The position numbers and the translations under genes were made by a program. This document shows positions 8,101-40,681 of a stretch of DNA of 42,774 nucleotides, in pieces; the stretch's first letter is position 1; each line of letters begins with the position of its first letter. The stretch is from positions 1 to 42,774 of the forward strand of contig LWCA01000187.1 in NCBI GenBank assembly GCA_001642005.1. Reading direction: 5' to 3'. The stretch is from Intoshia linei (taxonomy: Eukaryota > Animalia > Orthonectida). The notes beneath the pieces were generated by a model. That model had not been told where the DNA came from. It did no database searches and was given only the letters and a program-made list of their open reading frames with translations.

Positions 8101-10016
8101 ACCAACCAATACGTAAAAATAAATAATTATAATTAATTAATTTGACACTTAGGGAATTTTAGTTGATGAATTCACTCCAATTAGGCAATTATTTTTTGAA
8201 ATGACTATAATCAATTTAAAAAAAGTAGAGGTGGATAAAATCATAACTCGTATAGAAAATTCGTCTAGACTTTACGAAGAGGTATTTTTAAACGTAAATA
8301 ATATATATTTATTGTAGGAATTTAATAAACTAAGACATTATAGAGGTGCTTTATTGGATATAATTAATATATACAAAAAGTACAATCGAGATTTTTGTAA
8401 CAAGATGGATTCTGAGTATAATAATAAAGAGTTATTTTTAAATATATTGAATAACGTTCCTTTTAGGATAAACCAAATATATTTGAATTATCACGAAAGG
8501 ATAGGAAGAGTTGTAGACTACAGACAAACGTTTGAATTGGATTATTTTCGAAAAAGGAGAGAACAAGCTTTGGATATAATTAGAATTAAAAAATTAAAAA
8601 CTCACAGTTTAATTCTGAGTGATAGAGTAGTGATGTATAAAATGTAATTAAAATATTTAAATTTTACACATGTTGAATGTTTAGGACGCTACTGAAAAAA
8701 AAGATACAATTTGAAGATGTGACCAATTTATTAACATTAGAACGAGAACATGACAAACCATTATTATCAATTGTGAATAATGCAGTTGACTGTTTAACAA
8801 AATATTATCGAGGCTTAAATTATGGTAATGCTTATTTCCCGACTAGATTAGAGGCTATTAGGATGGATGAAGGGATTAGGACCGAAAAAGCATTGTCAAT
8901 TGAAAATAATAAAAAGATTATGGAAGAATATAGAAAGAAAAGAGTGCAAAAATTTAAAAAGTATACAAAATTTCAAAAATTTGGTTTGAATAAGAGTAGA
9001 CAAACTGAAATATCGAAAAATGCATTTCAAGGTGGAATGCACGATTTTTATTTTTTAGAAGTGTCAAAAATGGATAGTTTGAAAATTGAAATTGACGATA
9101 AAAAACAAGATTTGTCGATACATAAGTCGTTAATGGGCGATTCAAAACTAAAAAAAATGGAAGTCACTAGATTAAAAGAGGAACTAAAGAAGAAGAAAAG
9201 TAATTTAGAAGAATTAAACGAAAGGTATAAAATTTGCAAGAAAAACGTCACACGGTGGAATAAAAAATCAAAAGATGCGAATAAGGTAAATAGTGATAAA
9301 GATGAAAAAGTTGCAAAAGACACATCCGATGTTATAGAAAATTCATTTATGGATCGATCTATTCAAAAAACCAACGTATTATTTAAACCAATTAAATCTC
9401 TGTTCCGAAAGAGTTGTTATTCGCAAAATAGGGATAAAACGGATACAGAATTAGTCAGTAGTAAGGATATTTTTCAACCAAATTTATTAGAAACTTGTCA
9501 AACTCAACTGAACGAAATTCGAAAAAATTCCAAAGAGTCTGAAAATAAATCAACGTTTATAGTATTTGATACTGCTGGCATAAGTGTTTTACGAAAAAGA
9601 GAAATGAAAGAAGGTGATTGGTTGTATTGTGGAAGTTTAGAGGTTTTTTTAATTTAAATGGTTTTATTTGCAATAATTTTAGATGGCACTTCGATACCTT
9701 AACCATAGAACTGAAGGAACTTTTCTGGTTAGAAAATCTAATGAGCAACCACAATATACATTGATTTTTGTGTATTCATTTTTTTTATTTTTTTTTATTT
9801 CTGTTTAGAAAAAATCAAATTCCAATTTCCATTCCAATTCATTACATGAACATGAAATATTATATTGCAGACGAAATAAATGCCTCTTTTCGTGAATTAA
9901 AAGATTTAATTTTATTCTACAAAAATAAAACTACTGAAGAAAATATGAATACTTTGCGCATAGCATTAACTTTCCCATATACTTCCAAATCTTACAGTGC
10001 TTTCACTTCTGAATAA
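5144..10016 (+). CDS. PI3K class IA regulatory subunit-like protein (nSH2 - coiled coil - cSH2), 8 exons
   Basis: Phase-consistent exons: 5144-5370, 5420-5512, 5556-5739, 8153-8281, 8318-8643, 8685-9642, 9683-9771, 9809-10016. nSH2 reads PWYWGNISTEQCQHLLSTMPIGSFLVR...LIQYYKNNSLKEY. cSH2 reads DWLYCGSLEMALRYLNHRTEGTFLVRKS...FRELKDLILFY. A K/E-rich helical region lies between. This resembles the p85/p55/p60 layout. Confidence 0.75.
6181..6716 (+). mobile_element. Complete piggyBac-type MITE (6185-6712) with TTAA target-site duplication
   Basis: TTAA|CCCTAATACTTCCAG ... CTGGGAGTATTAGGG|TTAA, a 15-bp TIR with 1 mismatch. There is a perfect 20-bp subterminal palindrome GTGTGACCATATGGTCACAC at 6199-6218. 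Confidence 0.9.
6889..8019 (+). mobile_element. Tc1-family DD34E transposase pseudogene
   Basis: Motifs NRKRSGR, DWSK/VI..DESMI, KVMIW, FQQDLAPCHNAK-(34-aa spacing)-PDMNPIE and C-terminal MPRRIKSLITTKRGTIKY*. It has several stops and frameshifts. I did not recognise TIRs. Confidence 0.9.
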
Positions 10017-22145: not shown

Positions 22146-22453
22146 CAGTGTTTCTTAACCTTTTTACTTTAGGACACATTTTAATTCTGATAATATAAAT
22201 AAAAATTTGAATGCACCTGGTATCTACTCATAGCTCAATTGTTAAGAATGACTGTTATTTACTTCGTACAAACAGTATCTAGCTCTGTCGAAAACGGACT
22301 TTTTTAATTTCAACAAAAAAATGAATTAAATTATAAAATCCTACATAAAATGCTACTATCGCCCCTAGATGGGAGTACCGCCTATATTAGCTTTATTATT
22401 TATACTTTTAATGTAATATAGGTTCCGCCTGACAAAAATGTTGAGAAACATTG
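22146..22453. mobile_element. Degenerate hAT-type MITE
   Basis: TIR-like ends CAGTGTTTCTTAAC / GTTGAGAAACATTG. There is no clean TSD. Confidence 0.5.
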
Positions 22454-22617
22454 ATCTATACGGTTGAAACTAACATGTTCTTTTTCCCAAATAGGTTCCT
22501 GAAGGGTTAAATTTTCTATACATAATTAAAAAAGTAACCAATTAATTAATATACAAGACATTTAATATACATATTGTACATATTACATTGAAATGTTAAT
22601 ACATGTATATTATTTTA

Positions 22618-25460
22618 CTAGGCATAATGCTGAACAATATTTAATTCTTCAATAAATATTTCTAAAAATAACATTAAATTGAAATATTAAAATTACTAAT
22701 GTATGTTACGACTGTTGGGACTCCAAACATCTTATAGCAAGACTTTAAAATTATACACATGTCACGGACCCTTACTGGAAGATGTGTTTAGTGGTAAATT
22801 TTGAAAATTGAATTAATTTGAAAAACATAAAATGGTATATATCAAGTTTTCTATTTTTCATCGGGACGCCATAATATTTGCTTATACACCGATTGATAAA
22901 CACATAAAATAAATATTACCAAATATATACATATCCTTAAAAACTTTCTGATTTTTATCGTAATATATATAATAATGTCGTATCTGTAAGCGTTTGAAGA
23001 CAGGTTTAGGTTTAATAGTTTTAAAAATGCTAATAATTCTTGAATTGTAATGTTTTCGATTATAGGCATTTATATTTAATGGTTCGACCTTCATCATATC
23101 AAAATCTGAAATTAGCCCAAAGATTATACTTCTACCAGACATATTCAATTTCATAATAAGATTATCTCTGAGTTGATGCGATAAAAATATATTAAATGGA
23201 TCATCAATATCGTGCTTCATATAAACATACTTGTTATTTTCTTTAATATGAACAGATTTTCCTAAAGTTTAATATAAAAAATACTTGTATACTTACCAAG
23301 ATAAAATGTATGGTCGGATAGTTTATTCTTGAGATAAACGGGCTTAAGTGGTGTGACATCATTATGTGCTTTATTGTTATATCACAGTGATAATTTTCAT
23401 CCATTTCCATTTCTCCTTGATCTTCAAAGTTTGAAAAATATTTTTCAGCACGCACATCATAGGATATTTCGTCGTTTACAAGTGACGATTTATTGGTTTC
23501 ATTGTTTATTATATTATCGGTATTTGATCCCAAATATTGAAATTTTTCGTTTTCAATAATATTATACATTTTGGTTTTTTTAAACGGCAGAGAGATTCTA
23601 TTGTATCATCTGAAATATAACTTGCATTCAATTGTGATATATCATAATTAAAAATAAACGGTGAAATGGAATTTTGTGTACTTTCGTTTTCCAATTGAAC
23701 ATTTTCAAACATTTTTAAATAGAAATCAACCAAATTTTCAAAAATAAAAGAAAAATTATTATGTTTAAATGCAAACAAACCTAAAATATATTAATTCAAA
23801 ATTAATATTAAAATTACGAGTCAAAGTTTCAATCAACAATATTGCGTATGATTGCAGAAACATTTTTTTACATTTATATTTTAAAAACCAAGAAACAATG
23901 AATATCAAATCTGTATGAAGATGAGTCATTTTCCAAACAGTAAATAATATTAGAAAATTGATCATATCGTAACTAATAATATCTAAACGGATAAAATTTT
24001 CAAAATCATAGTTAAATGAGTAGATCAGTTTGAAAATTATTTTTAGCGAATTTAGGGCCATTTATATTTGCAAATATTGAAAATGATATTAAAAAAATAA
24101 AAATAATTAACCCGAAAAGCAGCCTTCATAATTTTTATGACCCCAAAATAACTGAAAAAGGTAATCATCTCAATAAATCTTGATAAGTTACTTGGATTCG
24201 AATTAAACTTGGATATTATATAATTCAATATTATTTCAATATTATTGTTCATGTTAGTTTTAATAAAAATTTTAGCATCTAAAAAATTAATTGAATTTAT
24301 ATATCATTTTAAATTGGTTTACTTGAAATTTTTATTTTTTTTGCGGGAATTATTATGAAACTAGCAAGCTGATATTGTGGAATAACATATAAATCGTATA
24401 AAGACACAGTAGCATAATATCCAGTCATTGCATCTATTATAACAATGGAATTATAATCTTTTAAATTGTATATATCACATATATGCATTAGTTTGCAATA
24501 TCACTCCAACCATAAGATATTTTTTCACTTGTCTTGTGGTAACAGGCTCAAATGTTTCTTTGTTACAAATTAAAAAATTTCCTAAATCTATAATGCTATC
24601 TTTATTTCATTGTCGAATTGAACCCACACTTCAGAATCGTTTATAACATATGCAATATAACCGTTTACTTTTTTCTTATCAGTAGTAGAGCATTTATTGA
24701 AAATTGAAACGCAGTTGTAAAATTCATTCAAACTGGACCAATTTATCATTTGTATTTGAATTTCTGCAAACAAGGGTAAATTCAGTTCTATCATATCTTT
24801 TGTATTCCAAATCGAATATACATCAATAAATGTATAAACATCAAATTGCACAAATATTTTATTGATGAATGATTTGTAATATAGAAAGAAACTAGTATTC
24901 GGATTCATAATGACATCAGTCAATAGAGATTCAACAGTTTCATCAGTACTAGAATACAAATGGTGCATTTTTAATTTTTCAATGTCAAACATTTCAATCA
25001 TGTGTAAAATAATGTAGAACAATTCAAATTTTTTCAAATAATTACGTGTATAACACATCATTAATTTTCTAAAGGTTTTTAAATAAACTTTTCCTGTATA
25101 CTTTGTCATTGTACAATACAACTTAAAAAGCGGAACCGCCATAGCATTATATTTTAGATATTTTTCTGCACAACAAAATATTTCGTCGATTGTTAATTCA
25201 CTCAAATTTCTATAATCGCTTTGCTCCATATCTAATTTATTCAATATTAATAATAAACGGAGTGATACATCTAAATAAATAATATTATAAATGAACCTAT
25301 TCCGTTTTAACATAAAATGTGCGCTAGAATGTCCCTCGATAGGTATGATTCCTTAGTGCAGTTTAGAAACAAAACAATTCATTTGAAATACGAATTGGAT
25401 TTCAGAGGAATGCAATCGGTTTGTCATACATGTATAAAAATCCCGAATGACACCTGGCTT
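22618..25460 (-). pseudogene. Frameshifted multi-exon gene: helical region + Tudor-like + helical region + Schlafen/AlbA_2-like domain
   Basis: A chain of same-strand ORFs joined partly by GT-AG mini-introns (e.g. ~23781-23818) and partly by frameshifts. The Tudor-like segment is GYIAYVINDSEVWVQ...SIVIIDAMTGYYATVSLYDLYVIP. The AlbA_2-like segment is MKLNMSGRSIIFGLISDFDMMKVEPLNINAYNRKHYNSRIISIFKTIKPKP. The 5' end is not resolved and the domain calls are by eye. Confidence 0.55.
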
Positions 25461-28119
25461 AACTCATATTATAATAAACTAATAAAAAATTTTGATTGTC
25501 AGTTTTTGGTAATTTTTTTTATATTATATCATTATCTATGCTATGGGTTCTTAATCTTTTTCTATTTGCCACCCAAAAATGTAATAAACTTAAATTTGAA
25601 AAATTTTTAATTTTAATTTTAAAAAAAAATATATCGTTTCTGTTTTACAATTTGGTAAATACACTACTCCAATTGGAATACCTGAAACCTGACTATAGAG
25701 ATATACATTAGGGCTGTTCATTTTTTACAAAAATTGATTTTTGTTGAAAATACCCTTTACCACGCTGAAGAGGGTACTTAAAAAACCCTAAAAAATATAT
25801 TTTTAGAAAAATTTACCGTAAAAATATTAAGCGGTTTTTCTTTTTAAGGTTGTCGCGCGCTTTCCCCATTTTTTCTCAATTGGCGCCAATGATTTTATTT
25901 TAAACATGGATAAGATTAATGTACGACCCACTAAGACATATACCAAATTTGCAGTAAAAAAATGACATATTTAACCTCAAAGGGCGTTTTTTCCATAAAA
26001 AGGGGTTTTTGTAATATTGATCAAATATAAAAATTCAAAAATTTATAATTACCAAAAATTTATTTTAACTGTGAAAATTGGAGTGTGTCATTATGAAATT
26101 CAGTTATTTACATTTTAAATACATTTTAATGAAAATAAAGTAATATGAACTCTCTAGAAGCCGAGCTAAAAAATTGAACTGTGTTTATTCTAATCGATTA
26201 ATTTTTATAAAAATTTTATGACGATATGTAAAATGTGACGCAGATTCGTGACAGGTGAGTGTAGTTTTATTGTATTATTATTTTCTGCGTTTTAATTAAT
26301 TAAAATCATAAAAAAAACGAAAATACTTTATTATCTTCAAAAAATAATGATAAATCATAGAAACAATTATTATTGGTGTTGAAATTCAAAGTATTTTAAA
26401 ATTAAAACGAATAATTCTGTTATTATAAAAATGAAATTTTAGTTTAATTTTTACCAATAATTATCTAAATTTTAGCAACCTCTTAGACTAAGAATTTTAA
26501 ATCACGATGAATGAGTTTGATGATATTCACCATATTATTGAATATAAATACATTATTATATTCAACAGTACATTCAAAATTGTTTATCAGAGAATTTTCA
26601 ATTTCAAAGTTTGAAACTCATATATAAAATTTTTTACAATAAAAAAAAATGTTATAAAATAAACTTAAATATCTTTGTAGCGCACGGGTTAAGAATCACA
26701 GTGATTACTGGGCTAATCAGATAATTTTTTAAATATAATAAATTTATAATATTTTTGTTTATTAGAAAGAAATGTATCCATGTTTTTGATTGACTTAGTA
26801 TATAAAATAAATGAAATTATAGGGTTTATCAATAAAAAAATAAATTTTAAATGAATCGCATTAAATTTTATGTAATCGATCAAAATATGTATAATAATAT
26901 TGATACACTAATACAAATGTAATTCTAATTTTCAAATATTAAGACTATACCGTAGCAATGATACGGTATCAGTTACCAGATCAATTTGAAAACTAACAAC
27001 TTCCATTTGAAATATTTATTATTTATAAAGTTTCTTTCTTTCCAAATTATGATTATACGTCAATTTTGTAAATGGTCTCTTTCATAAAGTTTTATTTGTA
27101 AATTGTCCCTTTTGTAAAAGATTTTTTTAATATTATTGAATGAAATTTCTCCACAGCACACCGTTTGAGAAACACTGATCTAGATTCTAGAAGATGGTGA
27201 ATATGACTATATGTCCATTACTGTCGGTATAGCTTCATGGCAGTAGCGGATCTAGGTGGGCGCAGAGGGTTTACCTGTCCAGATTCCGGACTTGCAGTTT
27301 AAATTCTACACTAAAAAAAAGCTATATTGAAAAATGAGCCCCCTGTTAACAAAAAATACACTGAAGCTTTGTCTATCAGTGTCCGTTAGGCCACCAGTAT
27401 TAGCCCAACACAGACGGCAACTTTGCCTTTTATTAACTATTTTCTAATGTATTTTTAATATTTTAATTTAAATGAGCGCCGTTTCATTTGATACATAATG
27501 TATTAATATTTATTATTTTGGTCCAAAAAATCCCGAATCTTCTACTGTTCCTATATTTATAACATTTTTCTGGTGGTTATGGATTTTTATAATTTTTGGA
27601 TAAATCGTTTGCACTACTACACAGAGTTGTCAGAAAATAAATTTATCTTATCGCAGCATTATTAATTATTAATTATAATTATAAACAAATTATAATTTAT
27701 TTATTATTATTTGCAAAGATGTTTAAATTAAATTTAAAACGTGATACAATAATTGAAATTGAAAATTTTTTGTATTGTCAAATTTAACGTTTTATCTAAG
27801 AGTCTAAGGTTTTAATAAAACAATTTAATTAATTTAATTTTTTGATTTTGGTAAAACATTTAAATTAATTATTTAGTAATGTTTTTTCATTTTTTTGACA
27901 AAAGAGAGATTCATGAAACATAAAACTAAACTAAATGAAAATTTATGTTGTTTCTTGAGTTAGTCTTTTAAATTTAATACACACATTGTTCTAATATTTC
28001 AAAAATACAATGTAAAACTTTTTTAATATTCAATTTTAAAACAAGACACCCATTTTACAAGAATTTCGATATGCCCTCCTCCAAAGGAGACACGGTACGG
28101 TATGTTCGGCAATACTCAA

Positions 28120-28806
28120 AGGGTTTGGTAAATTAGATTTTTCTAATAAATATAAATAAAAGGGAATTGTTCAGTTAAGATATAAAGATTGGTAAAACTT
28201 TATTTTTTATCATAAGATTTGGTAAAATCGAGTTTTTCAAGGTAATATTGGTAAAAGGAGATTTTTCCCTTGAGAGTTGGTAAAATTGAATTTTTATTGC
28301 AGTGTTGAAATAAGAGGTTTTACTCATAAAATTTGGTAAAATCAAGTTTTTATATTGGGGTTGGATTAAATTGACTTTTCACATAATGTTTGGTAAAATT
28401 TTTGAAAAAAATTTGAAAAAGGAAATTTTTCTCTTAAGGTTTAGTAAAATTGGATTTTTATATTGGGGTTGGATTAAATTGACTTTTCACATAATGTTTG
28501 GTAAAATCGAATTTTTCAAAAAAATATTGAAAAAAATGGTTTTTTTCCTTTGGAGTTGGTAAAATTAGATTTTTTATTTTTAGGTTAGATTAAGTAAATT
28601 TTTCTCATTAGGTATGGTAAAATCAGATTTTTTAAAAAAATATTGAAAACGTGGATTTTTCCCTAAGGGTGAAATTGCATTTTTTTTTAAATATTATTAT
28701 ATTTTATTAAATTTTATTAATGCCAAGATACAAGTGTGATTTGTTGAAATAATTATGTAGCTGTCGTTTAGGCTTTGAGATAAAATCCCAATATCTGGCA
28801 ACACTG
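28120..28806 (+). repeat. Family C repeat with internal degenerate tandem array
   Basis: More than 10 TTGGTAAAAT(C/T)-type units and an exact ~52-bp duplication (~28347-28398 and ~28455-28507). It ends ATCTGGCAACACTG. It is related to 16540-16963 and, reversed, to 37945-38175. Confidence 0.7.
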
Positions 28807-32589: not shown

Positions 32590-35500
32590 ATGCACATGAT
32601 TAATAGAACATACGAGAATTTACGCAATATCCAAACTCAATCTTTGACTAGTCAAGATTCTCAAATATCCCAATCTCCTTTATCTGAATGGGGTATTTTG
32701 TTGGGATACAAATCGAATATAAAAAATATGGGTAACATGAATAATATTTATATTTTTTATAATTTTGTCATTCAGTTTTGCATCAAAAACAAAAATATAC
32801 GTTTGGTCGTGGAATTAATTGTGATTATCTTTTTAATGAAAAATGCTTCAACAATTGTAAATCATTTGTACAATGCAGCATAGTTCATTTCAATATATCA
32901 AAGGTTACTTTTTTATTGAATGTACCTTGTAGTATCAAAATAATATTATCAATGATAACTTATCATTAGGGCTAACTTTCTATAATCTATAAAATAAGAA
33001 AAATGTAACCTACAAAAAAAATTATTAAAAATACAATAGATGTTTTTTCAGTTCATTTATATTGGTTATCACTAGGGCACACTTTTTCTAACCCATATAA
33101 AATACATTAAGAATTCAATATGGTCCCCCCTATTATAAATAATTTAAAAAATTAAACATTAAGATTTATTATGGTACAATATTAAATATTTTTTAACGTT
33201 ACTAGATAACAAAATTTCTTTGTTTTGTGAGTAATTTCTTCAGCATGCTAAAATTTCTTTCTACACCGTTAGAAGTTGAAGGACCATTTCTCAATTGGCT
33301 GTACAACGGAGGTTTGGACTGATCCATAGCTAACATAATTTTTTCTATATATAGTTGTATTTCACATGGGTCAGGACTAAATAGCATTTTTTTATTGTAT
33401 AATATGCTTGATTAATAGTAAACGACTCTTTTTCCAAGCTTTTATGGTGTCATCGACAGTGTACACTGTACAGTACAAGTTGGCCGTTCATGTTAGTATT
33501 GATCTTTTTACAATCAAAGAGCATTAGATTATGGGAAAATTTCAAGGCACCAACTATAATATGAATGTACTTCATTATTATTTAAGTCAGTTTCATCCAA
33601 CTTTAAAAAAATCAAATTATTGGAGCAACACTCTTAATTCTTTCAATTTATCTCAAATATAATTGATCGACTTTGCCACGACAGTTATTTTCAGATGGCA
33701 AAGTTTTTCCCATGCTAGCGAACAAATCCTTCAATTTTTTGTTGTTTAATTTATATAAGGATATGTCCACAGACAGAAAAGCTTGTAGAACTTCAATTGT
33801 AAAATCATTTAATTTTGAAAAATGTTCTGATTGAAGCAGATTTATTCAAAGTAACATGTTTAGCTGAACCTCTATCTACCTGTACATAATGTAACTTACA
33901 ACACTGCGACATTACAATTACATTTTATACAATATAAATTGTTCTCTAACTGTTTAAATTCCATTGGATAAAGTTTTAAAATATTATTGATTTTTTCTTT
34001 CCGTGATTTTGGAATTTTTGGCATACTAATTTTACATAATACAGAAATAAAATGAAATTACCTAATTAATAAAAATTAATTTGTAAAATTTTGAATAGAT
34101 GCACGTGTAAAAGTTATAATTTTCAAAATGTAATTTTTGAGATAACGATGTAACTTTATTAACTTTAAAAATGTTTAATTAGCTAATTTATATTGATAAT
34201 ATTGGTGCTTCATGCATGAAATTTAAAACTATTTTACATATCAAAAATTAACTTTATTAACTTTTGCTTGCCCTACTTATCATCAATCGTTATTCATCCT
34301 AACTTATATAAAAGGCTACGCGATTTTTGTTTGTGTGTGTGTTCAACTTTATTTAAATAACTACCCGTCTTAGAATTTTTTAAAGACCACATTTCAATTA
34401 CAGTTTTTTTCGGGACGTATATTAAGATCAATTTCAACCTCCCAATTTCACATCTTACGGGTCAAAAACCCCAGTTGTCCCTCTTTTTGAAAATCAAACG
34501 AGTTGGAGAATTTCAAAAAATTATATCTTCAGGGCCAAAACCACAAATTACCCTTCTTTTTTTAATGAAAACAGCCCTAGAATTTTAAAAAATTTACAGG
34601 TGGTACAGTTGTATCCTGTTAACACAAAAATTTTCAATGCGAATAAGTGACGACTTTACGGTCAAAAAAGCATTTTAGTATTCATATATTTTTTTCTGAA
34701 AAATTTTATTAAAATAAAAAATGTGAAATAATTAACAGTGCGAAAATTAAAAAAAAAAATTATTCTGATAGAGCTTATTCCAGTTGATATAAATACAAAA
34801 TTTCAACCCCAAAAATCAAAGCATTCCCGGTGAAAAATAATTTTTAATATATTATCAACCAATATTTTTCAAATATTTCGAATTAAAATAAAAATTGAAA
34901 TGTAAATATTAATCCTACAATTTCAAATTTTCATTTTCCAAACATTGTCACTTTAGTCCGCAATAAATTTTACAATTTATTACTGGTCCGCGTGAAAACT
35001 TAGTTAGAAGTTAGAACCGGATATATTCAAAAGTTACATTAAATTATATGATTAAATTCACATTTTAGAATAAACACGCCAATTTTGTATATATCACTGA
35101 TGTTAGTAAGAATGGAACATATTTAAATAGAAAAAAAATTGGAAATTCTGAAAACGTCACAATTAACCACAACGATGTTATTTCAATAAACAGCACTGAT
35201 AATGTTTGTAAGATTTTGGAGAATTTGTTTCTAAACATGGTGAACAATGCTCTCTGGGTATGTATGGATTTTCATTTTTTAGAGGGTTTAGAATTCTCCT
35301 TTTCAGTTATTTACAAATGTACATCACAATACTAATTGAAATTTATAATTTAAAATTTAAAATTCTAAATAATTTAGTTTTTACCTATATTGACATAAAA
35401 TCAAGCATGACAAAACTTCCCATACCTTTTAAATTCAAACATCAATATGTGTTTATTAAGGATATTGGACGGTAATCACAATGTATGAATAACCAAATTC

Positions 35501-36711
35501 AAACTTAGAGGAAGTTTTGGAAATATTAAATTGTTGTTTGATTTAAAAAATAATGCCAAAATTGTCACTAAAATTATACCAATACGATGTTACCTTATTA
35601 ATCAAGTAAATATTGATGCACAATTGAATTAATTAAAACTGGATTTATTAATGATAATTATAGACCCAGAAAACCGATAATTGTCAATCAATTCTGAATG
35701 AAATAAAAATAATCAAATCCATGAACCATGTAAGTTAACCCTTAACATGGCTTGCGTTAATATATCGTATTTAGCCGCTTATTGTTAAATACATCGATGC
35801 TATTAAAAAAATCAATTCCGAGTTTTGGATTTTAATGGAATAGTAATATTACTATTATGTATCATTGCACATTAAAATTAGTGTACCTGGTGGCGATTTG
35901 TTTGACAAAATAGAAAGCCATGGACCATTCAATGAATCATTTGCATATCCAATTTTTTACCAAATATTGGTGGCCGTTGAGGTAAAGTGCAAAAAAATTA
36001 AATTAAAAATGTTAACATTATTCAGTTTATTCATGAAAATGGAGTGACACACAGAGATTTAAAGGTTTGCTGAAGATTAAATGCAGTTACACTATTTTAG
36101 CCAGAAAATATTTTATTAAACTTTATCAATAACACATTCTATGTCAAGGTTTATTCTTTTTTTTATATACATTTTTCAGATTGGAGATTTTGGATTTTCC
36201 AAAGTTACCAAGAGTAAAAATTTAAAATCAATTGTGGGAACAGATATTTACATTGCTCCCGAGATTTTGAAAATTGAAAACGGAACGTATGATCAAACAT
36301 TTTATACCAATTCTATCGATATATGGAGTTGCGGAATCCTTTTTTATATTTGGTACTTTATTTTTCATATGAAAAATTTAATTTTTTTTATTTTTAGCAT
36401 GACTAAAAAATCACCTTTTTACCAAAACTACAAATCTTTATTAGTAAATGTTCCAGGAATTGATAAAATCATTAATTTTAAGCTTTTGCAGAAATTTCCG
36501 GGTTACATTATAATTTTTTCGTATAATCTGTTTTAGATATTAAAATGTTAGTTAAACAAATGTGTGACATTGATCCTTTGAAACGCATACCCATTTCCTT
36601 GGCTAAAGAATCAAAGATATTCAATGTATATATTTTTGTTACAAAAATTTATATACTTTTTAGAAAAAAATTAAGGAAATTACCCAAAATTATGTAAATA
36701 TTGTAAAATAA
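32590..36711 (+). CDS. CHEK2: Checkpoint kinase 2 (SQ/TQ cluster, FHA, Ser/Thr kinase)
   Basis: TQSLTSQDSQISQ cluster then WGIL. FHA motifs YTFGRGINCDY...CSIVHF (32776-32902) and ITDVSKNGTYLN (35069-35207). Kinase motifs IGRGSFG, GGDLFDKI, THRDLKPENILL, IGDFGFSK, GTDIYIAPEIL and IDIWSCG lie across mini-introns. Confidence 0.92.
32967..34275 (-). mobile_element. hAT element relic with perfect 8-bp TSD CTTATCAT in a CHEK2 intron
   Basis: CTTATCAT|TAGGGC ... GCCCTA|CTTATCAT. The minus strand encodes the hATC-like PSTSNGVERNFSMLKKLLTKQRNF. Confidence 0.8.
34297..34927 (+). mobile_element. Helitron-like family A copy (CHEK2 intron)
   Basis: A|TCCTAACTTATATAAAAGGCTACGCGATTTTTGTTTGTGTGTG start. 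It is the reverse complement of the other copies. Confidence 0.72.
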
Positions 36712-36912: not shown

Positions 36913-37375
36913 ATGATTAGCCTAAGATCAAAAAAGTTTTTTCTAATTTTGACACTATTGTTAATTCTATGTATAATTTATATTCGCCATTTACAAATAA
37001 AGTACCTCAAAGAAAGATTCACGTATAAATTTTCTGAAATTATAAACGAAGCCAAAGTAGTTGTAATATCGAAATCTTACTGTTTGTACAGTCAAAAAGC
37101 TAAGAATGCGTTTGAAAAGCTAATTCATGAAGGCATTTTAGACGAACAGGATTACAAAGTCCATGATATTGAATATGATCCCCATATGAATGAAATACAA
37201 AATATTTTAAAAGATTTAACAGGATCCAGGACGGTAAATTTCGATTAAAAAGATTACTTGTACTTTTACTTAGGTACCAGCTATATTTCTCAATAGCAAG
37301 TATATTGGAGGTGGTTCAGACATTGAAAGTTTATATAAAACCAAAAATTTACATAGCATCGTTCAAGGAAAATAA
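36913..37375 (+). CDS. Glutaredoxin, monothiol (CLYS), with N-terminal signal/anchor
   Basis: Exons 36913-37233 and 37274-37375. Motifs VVVISKSYCLYSQKAK, LKDLTGSRT/VPAIFLNSKYIGGGSDI. Hydrophobic N-terminus FFLILTLLLILCIIYI. Confidence 0.9.
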
Positions 37376-37389
37376 ATTTATTCAATATC

Positions 37390-40300
37390 TCAACAGTCTC
37401 TATTAATTCTTTCAAGAATTGCATCATAACTATCCAATTCATTTTGCTGCAATAATCCCACCTTTTCTTTCATTGATACTTTTTTTTGATAATTTTCATT
37501 CATAGAACTGGTTGTTGCATTTCCATTGACAAGACTTGTTTTTACTCGTTTTGCGGGTTTCTCTTGGTGTATGTTTATTTTCGTGTCAAGGGATTTAACG
37601 CCAAAATTATCCAAACATCTTGTCATTTGAAAATCAAACAATTCTTTGCGAAAAACTTTACCTCGGCGGTATCTATTTTTAATAAACATGATGAAATTTT
37701 CTTTATCATCAGTTTTAAAATAATATTTGAATATTCCACTAGTTGAACTGTATTTACCACCTTTAGTGTTAATCAAATCTTGAATACCATCACTTTCTTG
37801 TTGGGCAGTACGTTTTATGTTCTAAATTTTGTATATAATTATATTCAAACGTTCATATATCTAGGGCAGTGGCCAACAAACTTTTTGACATGGGGCCGGA
37901 ATAACTAATAGGAATTTACGCCAAAGTCTATACAACGGCTATATATTTATTTAAAAAACCCCACTTTTATTTCACCGTTAATAAAATTTACAATGCCATA
38001 AGTGTTAATAAAAAATACTATTTCAAACACCCTGGGAAAAATCAACTTTCACCGATATTTTTTTGAAAAATCAAATTTCACCAATGCTTAAGGAAAGATC
38101 CTTTTTTCCAATATTTTTTTAAAAACGATTTTACCAAATCTTATAAGAGAAAAAAAATTTAATTTTTTCATCAATATTTTGAAATGAACTCTATGCGTAC
38201 ACTATTTGAATCGGGAACCACTGACTTATATATAATTTAAATTTCTAAAACTTTAGCAAAATATCAAAAGTGGACCGTGTCACCTGGACACTATAACACA
38301 GGGATAAGTAACCTTATGACGGAAACGGTAAATTTCGAATAGTAGATTCTGATAATTTTGCTAACCTGACACATAAACAATGTACTACACACTGTTGGTA
38401 TTTAGTAAAATGACAGTGGATTGAAAAATAAAATTTTTTTCAGAAAAAATATGCATGCCGGATTCGACACGCGGGTTTCCCTTCATTGTTCTAATGTAAA
38501 ATAGATATCAACATTAAATAGGACTATAAAAATTAAATTATCGAGATCAGATATACCTCAACCTTTATTTATATAAAAATGTCTTACCGTTTAAATTAAA
38601 AATGAAATCTTAAAATTTAACAAACCCCCCACTCTAATACAGATTTTCGAGAGGGATGCTATATCGCAAATTTGATTTTCATAAATTAAATTTTTCAAAG
38701 TCAAAAACGCAAAATAATCCTTTTTTATATAAATGAATCCTAAAATTTTATAAAACATACATTATGGTAAGTTTTTAAATCAAATCAACCAATATTTTTC
38801 AAAATTTTAAATTATAATGTAAATATTGACCCTACAATTATAATTGATAATACAACATGGCCCGGTAGGGCTAGTTGATGTTTATACAAAGTACATAACA
38901 GTCAAGCTAGATTAATATAAAACGACCTTTCTAATTAAATATCTAATGCTCTGTTTAAATTTTTTGAATTTTTTTTCATCAGTCGAAATCATTCTCACTA
39001 TGTGTAACCTTCTCAATCTTTCAATTCGTCTCTAAATCATAATATACTATACTATAAATCACAATCTACAATGGAAAATATATCCATTATAATGGGGTCC
39101 CAAATATTTTTTACAACAGACGTTAATTATAAATTAATTTTCAAGAAATATTGAAATGTTATTAATAATTTAACTATATCACTTTATGATTAAAATTAAT
39201 GAGGGAACCGATATATTTTTCATTTATCCCTTTTTATATAAAAGTTAAAGTCTGTTACAGCTTATTTATAAAATTAAGACTCATAGAAGTTAAAAAACCC
39301 AAATTCTATTAGTTTTTCAAGGCCAATGCAGTATCAACTTAATTCTCAGAAATTGAGACCATCAGAGTTAAAAACTACTAGTCTCAGAAATTACTAAAAA
39401 TGAATTTGAAACAATTTTCTCTAGTTGATTTAGAAAAACAACCTTTTCTAAGAATTAATTTTAGAAGGGTATGAGTAGCTTACCCCACTATATTTACAGT
39501 CAAATATTTATCATAAAAAAGATTAAATAATTACTCTTAAAATGCAAAATTTTTTGGATATTTTATCGGCAACAGCACCCTGAAATGGTGAATAATATGG
39601 TAAAGTATCATTTTTGAATTCATCAGAACATTTAATGATATCATATTCGACAAAATCACGAATTCTTTGAAATTGATCAGATGCATCTTCAACTAAATAC
39701 AAAAAATTAACAATTAAAAATAAATTAAACCTGAAACGTCCTGAATTCGTGAATTTTGGTGAGCCCATTGATAAATAGATTTAAGAAGTCTTGATCCGTG
39801 GCCTCTTCTCTGATAAGGTGGGAGAATCATGGCTTGACTAAAAATGTGACTTTAATAACAAGAAAATACCTGACACGTAATCGACGTGTTCCCGGATATT
39901 TATAAAAGGAATATGTTGTAATAAACCCTATAAATTTGTGAACGTCTTGTGTTGTTTCAAATCTATTTTATTACAAGATAAATGAGCTTTACGTTTAAAT
40001 CAATCAAAATTACAGATAGAAAACATTCCATGATGTGTCATTTACATTAATATACGAAGCGGCGTCCACAAAGAATAAAATGAACCGCTGCGCTTGATAA
40101 TGATACTTGGATATATCGTTACTTTCCGTGGAACCGTAATACACAGAGAATGTAGCATCATTGAGTGAATATGTGTTGACTAGTTTTCCCGGAGGAATAA
40201 ACTTTTGATGAGATGCCATATTTGATCGGAAATCTTCAATAGAATAATTGTACGATTGATTAAGATACAATTCTTTATTCAAAATAGATATAACGTCATC

Positions 40301-40681
40301 TGGCTAGCGAAAGGTAAATGTACTGTAAAATTAAAAATTGAATTAAAACCTTGGTATCAGTTTCATCAACTTTATGAGAATAATTAAATTTTACGTAAAA
40401 ATCTAGGGTTTCGACACTATATAAGATATTTATAGCTGGAGATTCATATCCATAAATAGACTCACTAAAAATAATTTTTTTTAGTAAAATGTACTATACT
40501 TGCACCCAAAAATCTGATGTGTCATGTCTGGATGAAAGGTTTCGCGTAAATCTGATCCATCACTTGAAACTACCAATTATCATTTAACATAACTATCTAA
40601 ACCTGGAATGAATGTGACGCTCTCGTTAGCATCTGCTAAATATTTTTTTTTAACACTACTAATTTCAACATTGTCATCCAT
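37390..40681 (-). CDS. HAT1: Histone acetyltransferase type B catalytic subunit
   Basis: Motifs [69 protein letters not shown] and VEDASDQFQRIRDFV. The last exon is 37390-37821. Confidence 0.93.
37866..38223. mobile_element. hAT-type MITE containing a family C segment (HAT1 intron)
   Basis: Ends CAGTGGCCAACAAAC / GGGAACCACTG. The interior is the reverse of 28560-28750-type sequence. Confidence 0.5.
38560..38910 (+). mobile_element. Short diverged Helitron-like copy with 3' hairpin and CTAG end
   Basis: Family A-like body (AACCAATATTTTTCAAA, CCTACAATT) joined to TGTTTATAC-AAA-GTACATAACAG-TCAAG-CTAG. Confidence 0.6.

What the first reader, a model, noticed from the sequence alone, without database searches (positions are those of the whole stretch)
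22618..25460. Candidate Tudor + Schlafen(AlbA_2)-like fusion: possible small-RNA/anti-transposon nuclease
Seen: after frame repair there is one long minus-strand protein. It has an extended-Tudor-like segment (GYIAYVINDSEVWVQ...IVIIDAMTGYYATVS, ~24330-24670), helical/ARM-like stretches, and a C-terminal segment resembling the AlbA_2 signature LN..G..I.FG...V..+...R (~22890-23220). Established: Tudor proteins scaffold PIWI/piRNA machinery, Schlafen domains are RNases, and the C. elegans PUCH Schlafen complex processes piRNA precursors. Inference: this could be an uncharacterised RNA-defence factor in a transposon-laden genome. Both domain calls are divergent and made by eye.
Basis: partly seen in the sequence, partly recalled or inferred. 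Interest (0 to 1): 0.75.

Follow-up and report, generated by a model that had tools for sequence, protein, structure and literature searches.

The report
Frame-broken Tudor–Schlafen fusion gene relic
A tiny-intron gene whose reading frame breaks five times, with two of the breaks also present in spliced contigs from a second study, is likely the decaying remnant of a little-studied animal protein that joined a Tudor-like module to a Schlafen-like RNA-cutting domain, and it would no longer make that protein.

Summary
The long minus-strand reading is real: with four GT-AG introns removed it needs 5 frame changes over 2,238 nt, against 40 ± 4 by chance. The breaks are not assembly errors. A DNA run matches letter for letter across four of them. 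Contigs of a second study, spliced at two introns and so probably RNA, run unchanged through two. Three neighbouring genes have no such breaks. As written, the mRNA stops after 213 codons, before the Tudor core.

The domain calls are weak. Pfam, PDB sequences, two protein collections and two fold searches gave nothing. Home-made profiles give modest support: Schlafen/AlbA_2 0 of 400 to 24 of 3,000 shuffles, after a first negative profile; Tudor 10 of 800, after several negative tests. One catalytic acid and the Tudor aromatic cage are missing.

Best reading (0.55): a transcribed pseudogene of a helical-repeat–Tudor–Schlafen protein, not an active anti-transposon nuclease. The scan noted that architecture before on other DNA (e1-8792701, e1-9971378; unchecked). 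I found no paper on it.

The parts
24588..25229 (-). First open frame, ATG to TAG, 213 aa: helical N-terminal region plus the first strands of the Tudor-like segment; the only product of normal translation
   Evidence: on record as a 213-aa protein in a one-member cluster; helical-solenoid look-alikes under the naming bar, model pTM 0.24
24323..24674 (-). Extended-Tudor-like segment, split over three frame pieces, aromatic cage absent
   Evidence: end-to-end profile alignment 10 of 800 shuffles; not significant; no Pfam or fold hit
24591..24606 (-). Frame break A (-1), no intron
   Evidence: stops per frame; bridged with 0 differences and 0 gaps by X1 24039-25590 and X2 24479-24731
24478..24500 (-). 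Frame break B (+1)
   Evidence: bridged by X1 only; the X2 contig ends at 24479 with 7 unplaced letters beside a GT at 24478
24279..24322 (-). 44-nt GT-AG intron, predicted
   Evidence: restores frame; splice score 9.9 within the range of 17 neighbouring introns, GC 0.14; no spliced contig covers it
23983..24110 (-). Unresolved zone C: a further frame change, a long intron, or an intron with a dead acceptor
   Evidence: GC 0.19, stops in all three frames; X1 leaves 24030-24038 uncovered and X2 has no cover
23781..23817 (-). 37-nt GT-AG intron, predicted
   Evidence: restores frame; splice score 11.8, GC 0.08
23512..23605 (-). Frame break D (-1) at or near a run of seven A
   Evidence: bridged with 0 differences and 0 gaps by X1 and by X2 23448-23676
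23297..23381 (-). Frame break E (-1) at the upstream edge of this stretch; its end carries the first residues of the Schlafen-like domain
   Evidence: codon model prefers the new frame, 4.4 against -5.1; best frame-restoring intron scores 1.0; bridged by X1 only
23262..23296 (-). 35-nt GT-AG intron, spliced
   Evidence: skipped in an X2 contig
22920..23261 (-). Schlafen/AlbA_2-like domain, main exon; first catalytic Glu kept, second lost, Asp shifted by one
   Evidence: profiles from fetched AlbA_2 loci; below any library threshold
22662..22919 (-). 258-nt GT-AG intron, spliced; much longer than the 31-58 nt of neighbouring introns
   Evidence: skipped in an X2 contig; intron lengths
22618..22661 (-). 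Last exon with stop codon
   Evidence: joined to the Schlafen-like exon in X2; translation

Best explanation
This is a spliced gene whose reading frame breaks five times, likely a still-transcribed pseudogene of an animal protein that joined helical repeats, an extended Tudor module and a Schlafen/AlbA_2 domain. Shown: the long broken reading, two spliced introns, and the breaks in reads. Inferred: single-base losses and gains piled up after selection on the protein lapsed, while promoter and splice sites kept working. Ribosomes would now stop at codon 214 and make at most a 213-aa helical fragment. Inferred for the ancestor: a scaffold-type partner in RNA processing, working like the non-catalytic PUCH subunit TOFU-1 fused to a Tudor adaptor, since the Schlafen-like part lacks a catalytic acid and the Tudor lacks its methyl-arginine cage. 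Whether those residues were lost before or after the gene broke cannot be told.
For: 5 frame changes against 40 +/- 4 expected. The open frame is the best coding frame in 9 of 11 segments. X1 matches 22560-23818, 23861-24029 and 24039-25590, and X2 matches 894 nt, with 0 differences and 0 gaps; X2 skips two GT-AG introns and runs through breaks A and D. Kinase, HAT1 and glutaredoxin genes nearby (17 introns, 745 codons read) need no frame change. AlbA_2 profiles: local 24 of 3,000 shuffles, and its open frame ranks 1 of 158 window frames; 5 of 2,990, end-to-end 0 of 400 and 1 of 400. Tudor end-to-end 10 of 800, in canonical register. Tudor genes are reported as reduced in small-genome endoparasites (PMC12147562, passages).
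Against: No library recognises any piece. The first 13-sequence AlbA_2 profile was negative, 461 of 2,000, and the animal-like AlbA_2 template scored Z 0.9 or less pairwise. Tudor tests were negative pairwise and locally, by hhalign and in a narrower window, 137 of 800; the positive run widened the window afterwards. With free placement over the whole reading neither profile beats shuffles clearly: 13 of 120 and 27 of 120. No in-frame nonsense codon accompanies the five frame changes, which is somewhat odd for decay. X2 is not on record as RNA, and X1 may be the assembly's own source. No intact orthologue could be fetched.
Confidence: 0.55

Rival explanations
1. It is a broken gene, but of an unrelated orphan protein; the Tudor and Schlafen likenesses are chance patterns in an AT-rich, hydrophobic sequence.
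For: No hit in Pfam, PDB sequences, 1.84 billion representatives, the word-indexed collection or fold libraries. Whole-reading shuffles 13 of 120 and 27 of 120. Several negative profile runs.
Against: Both profiles land on the segments named beforehand. AlbA_2 end-to-end Z is 3.4-4.4. Pairwise Z of 3-5 against three giant-virus AlbA_2 domains beats all 35 control frames (BLOSUM62).
Confidence: 0.22
2. The gene is intact through splicing I could not see: longer introns remove the breaks, and the X2 contigs that cross them are intron-retaining molecules.
For: A 258-nt intron is used here. Frame-restoring candidates with good scores exist for A (24661-24582, 12.0), B (24543-24369, 10.7) and C (24208-23973, 11.7). 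One X2 contig ends with 7 unplaced letters beside a GT at 24478.
Against: X2 contigs run straight through A and D. The best candidate for E alone scores 1.0, and those spanning D and E (up to 7.3) would remove sequence that X2 covers. The A and B candidates would delete most of the Tudor-like segment. The would-be introns keep a coding signature.
Confidence: 0.12
3. The gene has split: the 213-aa helical protein still works alone, and downstream pieces are dead weight or are made by re-initiation.
For: The 213-aa frame is unbroken and is on record as a protein. PUCH works with separate small Schlafen-fold subunits (PMC10567574, passages).
Against: The stop cuts the Tudor-like segment after its first strands. 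The record is a one-member cluster from this contig, with no relative found among longer proteins. A start at the first Met of the Schlafen-like exon would omit the first catalytic Glu.
Confidence: 0.06
4. The mRNA is decoded into the full fusion protein by programmed ribosomal frameshifts at each break.
For: Spliced contigs carry the breaks unchanged. No in-frame nonsense codon is needed. Break D holds slippery-type heptamers (motif recalled).
Against: Five sites of mixed sign share no motif. Such A/T runs are common at 26% GC. Three neighbouring genes show no recoding. Yield would collapse over five sites (inference).
Confidence: 0.04
5. The breaks are assembly errors and the gene is intact.
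For: X1 may be the assembly's own source. 24030-24038 and 23819-23860 lack listed cover.
Against: X2, from another study and year, matches across A and D with 0 gaps. X1 contigs match across A, B, D and E.
Confidence: 0.01

Closest known systems
C. elegans PUCH (TOFU-1, TOFU-2, SLFL-3/4) with PETISCO subunit TOFU-6 (PMC10567574; passages read)
   Same: A single Schlafen-like fold per chain; TOFU-1 has no catalytic residues; an extended Tudor domain (TOFU-6) binds the complex outside its aromatic cage.
   Different: There Tudor and Schlafen folds sit on separate, intact proteins with shown piRNA-precursor cleavage. Here they would be fused, the gene is frame-broken, and no partner, activity or sequence link was shown.
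SLFNL1-type single-AlbA_2 proteins and Pfam SLFN_AlbA_2 PF04326 (10.1101/2024.01.12.575368 and PMC12680541; passages)
   Same: Order of elements and the LN..G..I.FG core align with fetched AlbA_2 domains.
   Different: Below the Pfam cut-off; second catalytic acid lost, whereas SLFNL1 is reported to keep its catalytic residues; preceded by Tudor-like and helical regions.
Extended-Tudor (TDRD/SND1-type) domains, Pfam TUDOR PF00567
   Same: N-terminal strand pair, helix, barrel and closing strand align in register with a 3-sequence profile.
   Different: No Pfam hit; WYRA and DYGN cage motifs of the templates are absent; split by two frame breaks.
Armadillo-Tudor-Schlafen proteins noted earlier by this scan in other animals (e1-8792701, e1-9971378; unreviewed AI notes)
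   Same: Same domain kinds and C-terminal Schlafen domain; one note also describes a tiny-intron gene lacking cutting residues.
   Different: Those notes describe protein-coding genes, with two Tudor modules or one with swapped halves. Here one Tudor-like segment lies in normal order and the frame is broken. I could not fetch their sequences, so kinship is untested.

Membership tests
Schlafen / AlbA_2 (PF04326) | Match to the family profile above its cut-off | tested here: not met
   No PF04326 row at E up to 10 for the unspliced 128-aa frame; the spliced form could not be sent to Pfam
Schlafen / AlbA_2 (PF04326) | Remote sequence likeness to AlbA_2 domains above chance | tested here: inconclusive
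   Positive: 24 of 3,000; 5 of 2,990, 0 of 400, 1 of 400; 0-5 of 250. Negative or weak: 461 of 2,000; hhalign probability 4%; 27 of 120 over the whole reading
Schlafen / AlbA_2 (PF04326) | AlbA_2 fold | tested here: inconclusive
   Single-sequence model pLDDT 37.5; best Z 5.7, rmsd 3.6, 78 aligned, to an unrelated SnoaL-like protein
Active Schlafen RNases (SLFN11-14, SAMD9, TOFU-2) | Three to four acidic catalytic residues (PMC12680541) | tested here: not met
   In 56 fetched domains: first Glu 53, second acid 51, Asp at G+3 51 (this last enriched by my search pattern). Here: Glu kept, second acid replaced by Tyr, Ser at G+3 with Asp at G+4. The fourth acid was not examined
Extended Tudor (PF00567) | Profile or fold match | tested here: inconclusive
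   No Pfam, PDB-sequence or fold hit on single pieces; bridged segment 10 of 800 but 137 of 800 and not significant; only 3 templates
Extended Tudor (PF00567) | Aromatic cage for methyl-arginine | tested here: not met
   Template WYRA and DYGN columns align to non-matching residues; depends on a weak alignment
Armadillo/HEAT-type helical repeats | Alpha-solenoid fold | tested here: inconclusive
   Atlas model pTM 0.24; TM 0.54-0.64 by query to helical proteins including Mo25-like, all under the naming bar
piRNA-pathway factor (PUCH/TDRD type) | Germline expression, PIWI or precursor binding, effect on piRNAs | not testable with these tools
   No run on record as RNA, contigs only; no whole genome held to look for PIWI
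Transcribed unprocessed pseudogene | Keeps introns, is spliced, carries frame-disabling changes | tested here: met
   Two GT-AG joints and unchanged breaks in X2; breaks in X1. That X2 is RNA is inferred from the joints
Transcribed unprocessed pseudogene | Loss of purifying selection against an intact orthologue; no full-length protein | not testable with these tools
   No orthologue found; no proteomics

The most novel reading that the evidence does not exclude
The locus is alive: a spliced mRNA with five frame breaks and no nonsense codon is recoded, or spliced in a rare isoform, into a 730-residue helical-repeat-Tudor-pseudo-Schlafen scaffold. That protein would be a one-chain counterpart of PUCH's TOFU-1 plus PETISCO's TOFU-6, and the first serially frameshifted small-RNA factor in an animal.
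Probability: 0.06. Interest if true: 0.85.

Novelty: new variant of a known kind. Interest (0 to 1): 0.28.

Why it matters
If the domain calls hold, this adds a lineage to an animal Tudor-Schlafen fusion that I found in no paper (main text of the Tudor survey PMC12147562, whose supplement could not be read). It would catch that gene in the act of being lost from a miniaturised genome, in line with reported Tudor-gene loss in such genomes. The family deserves study through intact members elsewhere; this copy is a poor entry point. It also shows that frame repair here hid real lesions: the database record covers only the first 213 codons.

Tried and rejected
No whole genome is held, so paralogues and PIWI genes could not be sought.

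Sequence searches that found nothing: Pfam on 8 pieces and 2 more short ones; PDB sequences on 3 pieces; 1.84 billion representatives with the Schlafen-like frame, 0 hits; word-indexed searches of longer proteins, 0 of 337 and 0 of 51 candidates; phage records; the Atlas by features.

A search for long animal AlbA_2 fusions from a fetched animal-like domain scored 0 of 73 candidates, so no family profile could be made.

Single-sequence models had pLDDT 37.5 and 58.3. Neither Schlafen nor Tudor folds were listed; a few small Sm/SH3-type barrels appeared at Z 2.8-3.4, which is noise level.

No RNA holder was listed. Parts of the gene without X2 cover say nothing.

Other blanks: pattern scans; related-loci scans; Rfam, 0 matches; only chance-like repeats inside the gene; earlier notes on this genome or sequence.

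Rejected: stop-codon reassignment, since the skipped frame between A and B holds TAA, TAG and TGA. Rejected: insertion/deletion editing at A and D, since X2 shows no gaps, although contigs drop rare variants.

Rows dropped before counts: repeated loci (L009, L011, L016; 97 candidates reduced to 56 distinct). An alternative ending by a sixth frame change near 22925 fits the eukaryote-like profile better than the spliced ending (Z 3.4 against 2.1) but equally under the broad profile (4.1 and 4.1); left as a hint.

Full report
Setting. The window is one whole contig of about 26% GC. It is eukaryotic with very short introns: a protein kinase, a HAT1 acetyltransferase and a glutaredoxin (Pfam) splice through 17 GT-AG introns of 31-58 nt and need no frame change over 745 codons. 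No whole genome is held. I did not determine the lineage; 'animal' is an inference from the likely gene family.

The observation. On the minus strand a coding-like region runs from ATG 25229 to TAG 22620-22618. With these removed, 2,238 nt can be read with 5 frame changes, against 40.2 +/- 4.3 (minimum 25) in 500 Markov resamples. An open frame is the best coding frame in 9 of 11 segments; the two exceptions lie in 24110-23820. So this was a protein-coding gene of about 730 codons.

The breaks are real. They lie at A 24606-24591 (-1), B 24500-24478 (+1), C 24110-23983 (unresolved), D 23605-23512 (-1) and E near 23381 (-1). Three X1 contigs cover all but 23819-23860 and 24030-24038 with no differences and no gaps; X1 may be the assembly's own source. 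X2 comes from another study and year. Four of its five laid contigs lie on predicted exons, match 894 nt exactly, skip two GT-AG introns, and run straight through A and D; the fifth is a 31-nt match upstream of the gene. X2 is not on record as RNA; I infer that from the joints. Normal translation therefore ends after 213 codons, and that fragment is what the databases hold, as a one-member cluster. Seven other start-to-stop pieces were not on record.

Could hidden introns rescue the frame? Well-scoring candidates exist for A, B and C, but they would delete most of the Tudor-like segment, and X2 shows A and D unspliced. Break E has no candidate above 1.0, while 15 of 17 true introns score 4.1 or more. 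One X2 contig ends with 7 unplaced letters beside a GT at 24478, so an unseen junction there stays possible.

Schlafen/AlbA_2 call. No library recognises it, and the single-sequence model is unusable, pLDDT 37.5. I fetched AlbA_2 domains with short recalled patterns (Pfam confirmed 3 of 3 tested). A first 13-sequence profile was negative, 461 of 2,000 shuffles. Pairwise BLOSUM62 scores reached Z 3-5 against 3 of 13 templates and beat all 35 control frames, but the animal-like template gave Z 0.9 or less. A 56-sequence profile gave 24 of 3,000, and the unspliced frame ranked 1 of 158 window frames. A eukaryote-like subset gave 5 of 2,990; end-to-end scores gave 0 of 400 and 1 of 400, though a 326-aa coiled frame scored about as well or better. 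hhalign gave probability 4%. The active site of these RNases has three to four acidic residues (PMC12680541, passages). Here the first Glu is kept, the second acid is Tyr, and the Asp after the glycine strand is shifted by one. I put the domain call at about 0.7 and an intact active site well below that.

Tudor call. Single pieces gave no Pfam, PDB or fold match. Only three templates could be fetched (all TUDOR by Pfam). The X-bridged segment was not significant pairwise or locally, by hhalign on pieces, or end-to-end in a 117-residue window, 137 of 800. A wider window, chosen afterwards, gave 10 of 800 and the canonical register from first strand to last. Over the whole reading both profiles place best on the segments named beforehand, but score only 13 of 120 and 27 of 120 against whole-reading shuffles. 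The cage motifs are absent. I put this call at about 0.55. The helical N-terminal part has only sub-threshold solenoid look-alikes.

How it most likely works. Today it is likely a transcribed pseudogene: promoter and splice sites persist, small insertions and deletions have broken the frame, and at most a 213-aa fragment is made. The ancestor was likely a scaffold. PUCH shows that a Schlafen fold without catalytic residues (TOFU-1) can be a needed subunit and can bind an extended Tudor domain outside its cage (PMC10567574, passages). That parallel is a lead, not a test. One point is unexplained: five frame changes come with no in-frame nonsense codon, which keeps recoding or rare splicing open at low odds.

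Prior knowledge. Searches for Schlafen with Tudor and piRNA, Armadillo, SLFNL1 or AlbA gave no paper on such a fusion (listings and abstract starts seen). PMC12526068 names Schlafen only in its reference list. The Tudor survey PMC12147562 has no Schlafen or AlbA in its main text and reports Tudor-gene reduction in small-genome endoparasites (passages); its supplement could not be read and may list such genes. SLFNL1 is described as a poorly characterised single-AlbA gene with conserved catalytic residues (10.1101/2024.01.12.575368, passages). Two unreviewed notes of this scan describe Armadillo-Tudor-Schlafen genes in other animals; they shaped my reading of the ancestor, and I could not test kinship.

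Verdict. Observation partly confirmed, interpretation partly supported. The architecture is plausible and apparently undescribed, but weakly evidenced here, and this copy is frame-broken and probably catalytically disarmed. Interest 0.28.

Noticed in passing
window 35407-36703 (+): Intact 298-aa protein kinase gene with 10 introns of 31-58 nt; used as a splicing control.
   Followed up: partly
window 39500-40681 (-): HAT1 histone acetyltransferase gene, read through 6 introns without frame change; its 3' end was not resolved.
   Followed up: partly
window 36913-37375 (+): 140-aa glutaredoxin with an N-terminal hydrophobic stretch and a single-cysteine CLYS motif.
   Followed up: partly
window 8160-9900 (+): Gene with a 326-aa lysine/glutamate-rich exon followed by an SH2-like piece (GTFLVRKS, judged by eye); may be a PI3-kinase regulatory subunit. 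No Pfam hit on the two long frames.
   Followed up: no
window 22168-22340 and 25675-26340: Multi-copy repeats flank the gene: summed contig depth up to 288 and 261 against about 10 inside; contigs join 26117 to 22251, so both flanks hold pieces of one element.
   Followed up: no
window 28185-28664: Degenerate tandem array with periods of 29, 57 and 116 nt.
   Followed up: no
window 22851-22930 (-): Inside the 258-nt intron another frame continues with a strand-like stretch and ILWRPD, which resembles the last AlbA_2 hairpin; the long intron may be a newer cryptic splice.
   Followed up: partly
window 24076-24110 (-): A 35-nt GT-led, T-rich stretch ends in CAA rather than CAG; it looks like a short intron with a dead acceptor.
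   Followed up: no
L099:69-1073, L100:219-995, L101:3-1067: Tudor-domain genes on contigs filed under bacterial genome bins, probably eukaryotic or viral contamination.
   Followed up: no
L017:35-1375 (-): Intronless 447-aa eukaryote-like protein with a C-terminal-half AlbA_2 domain that hits SLFN structures.
   Followed up: partly
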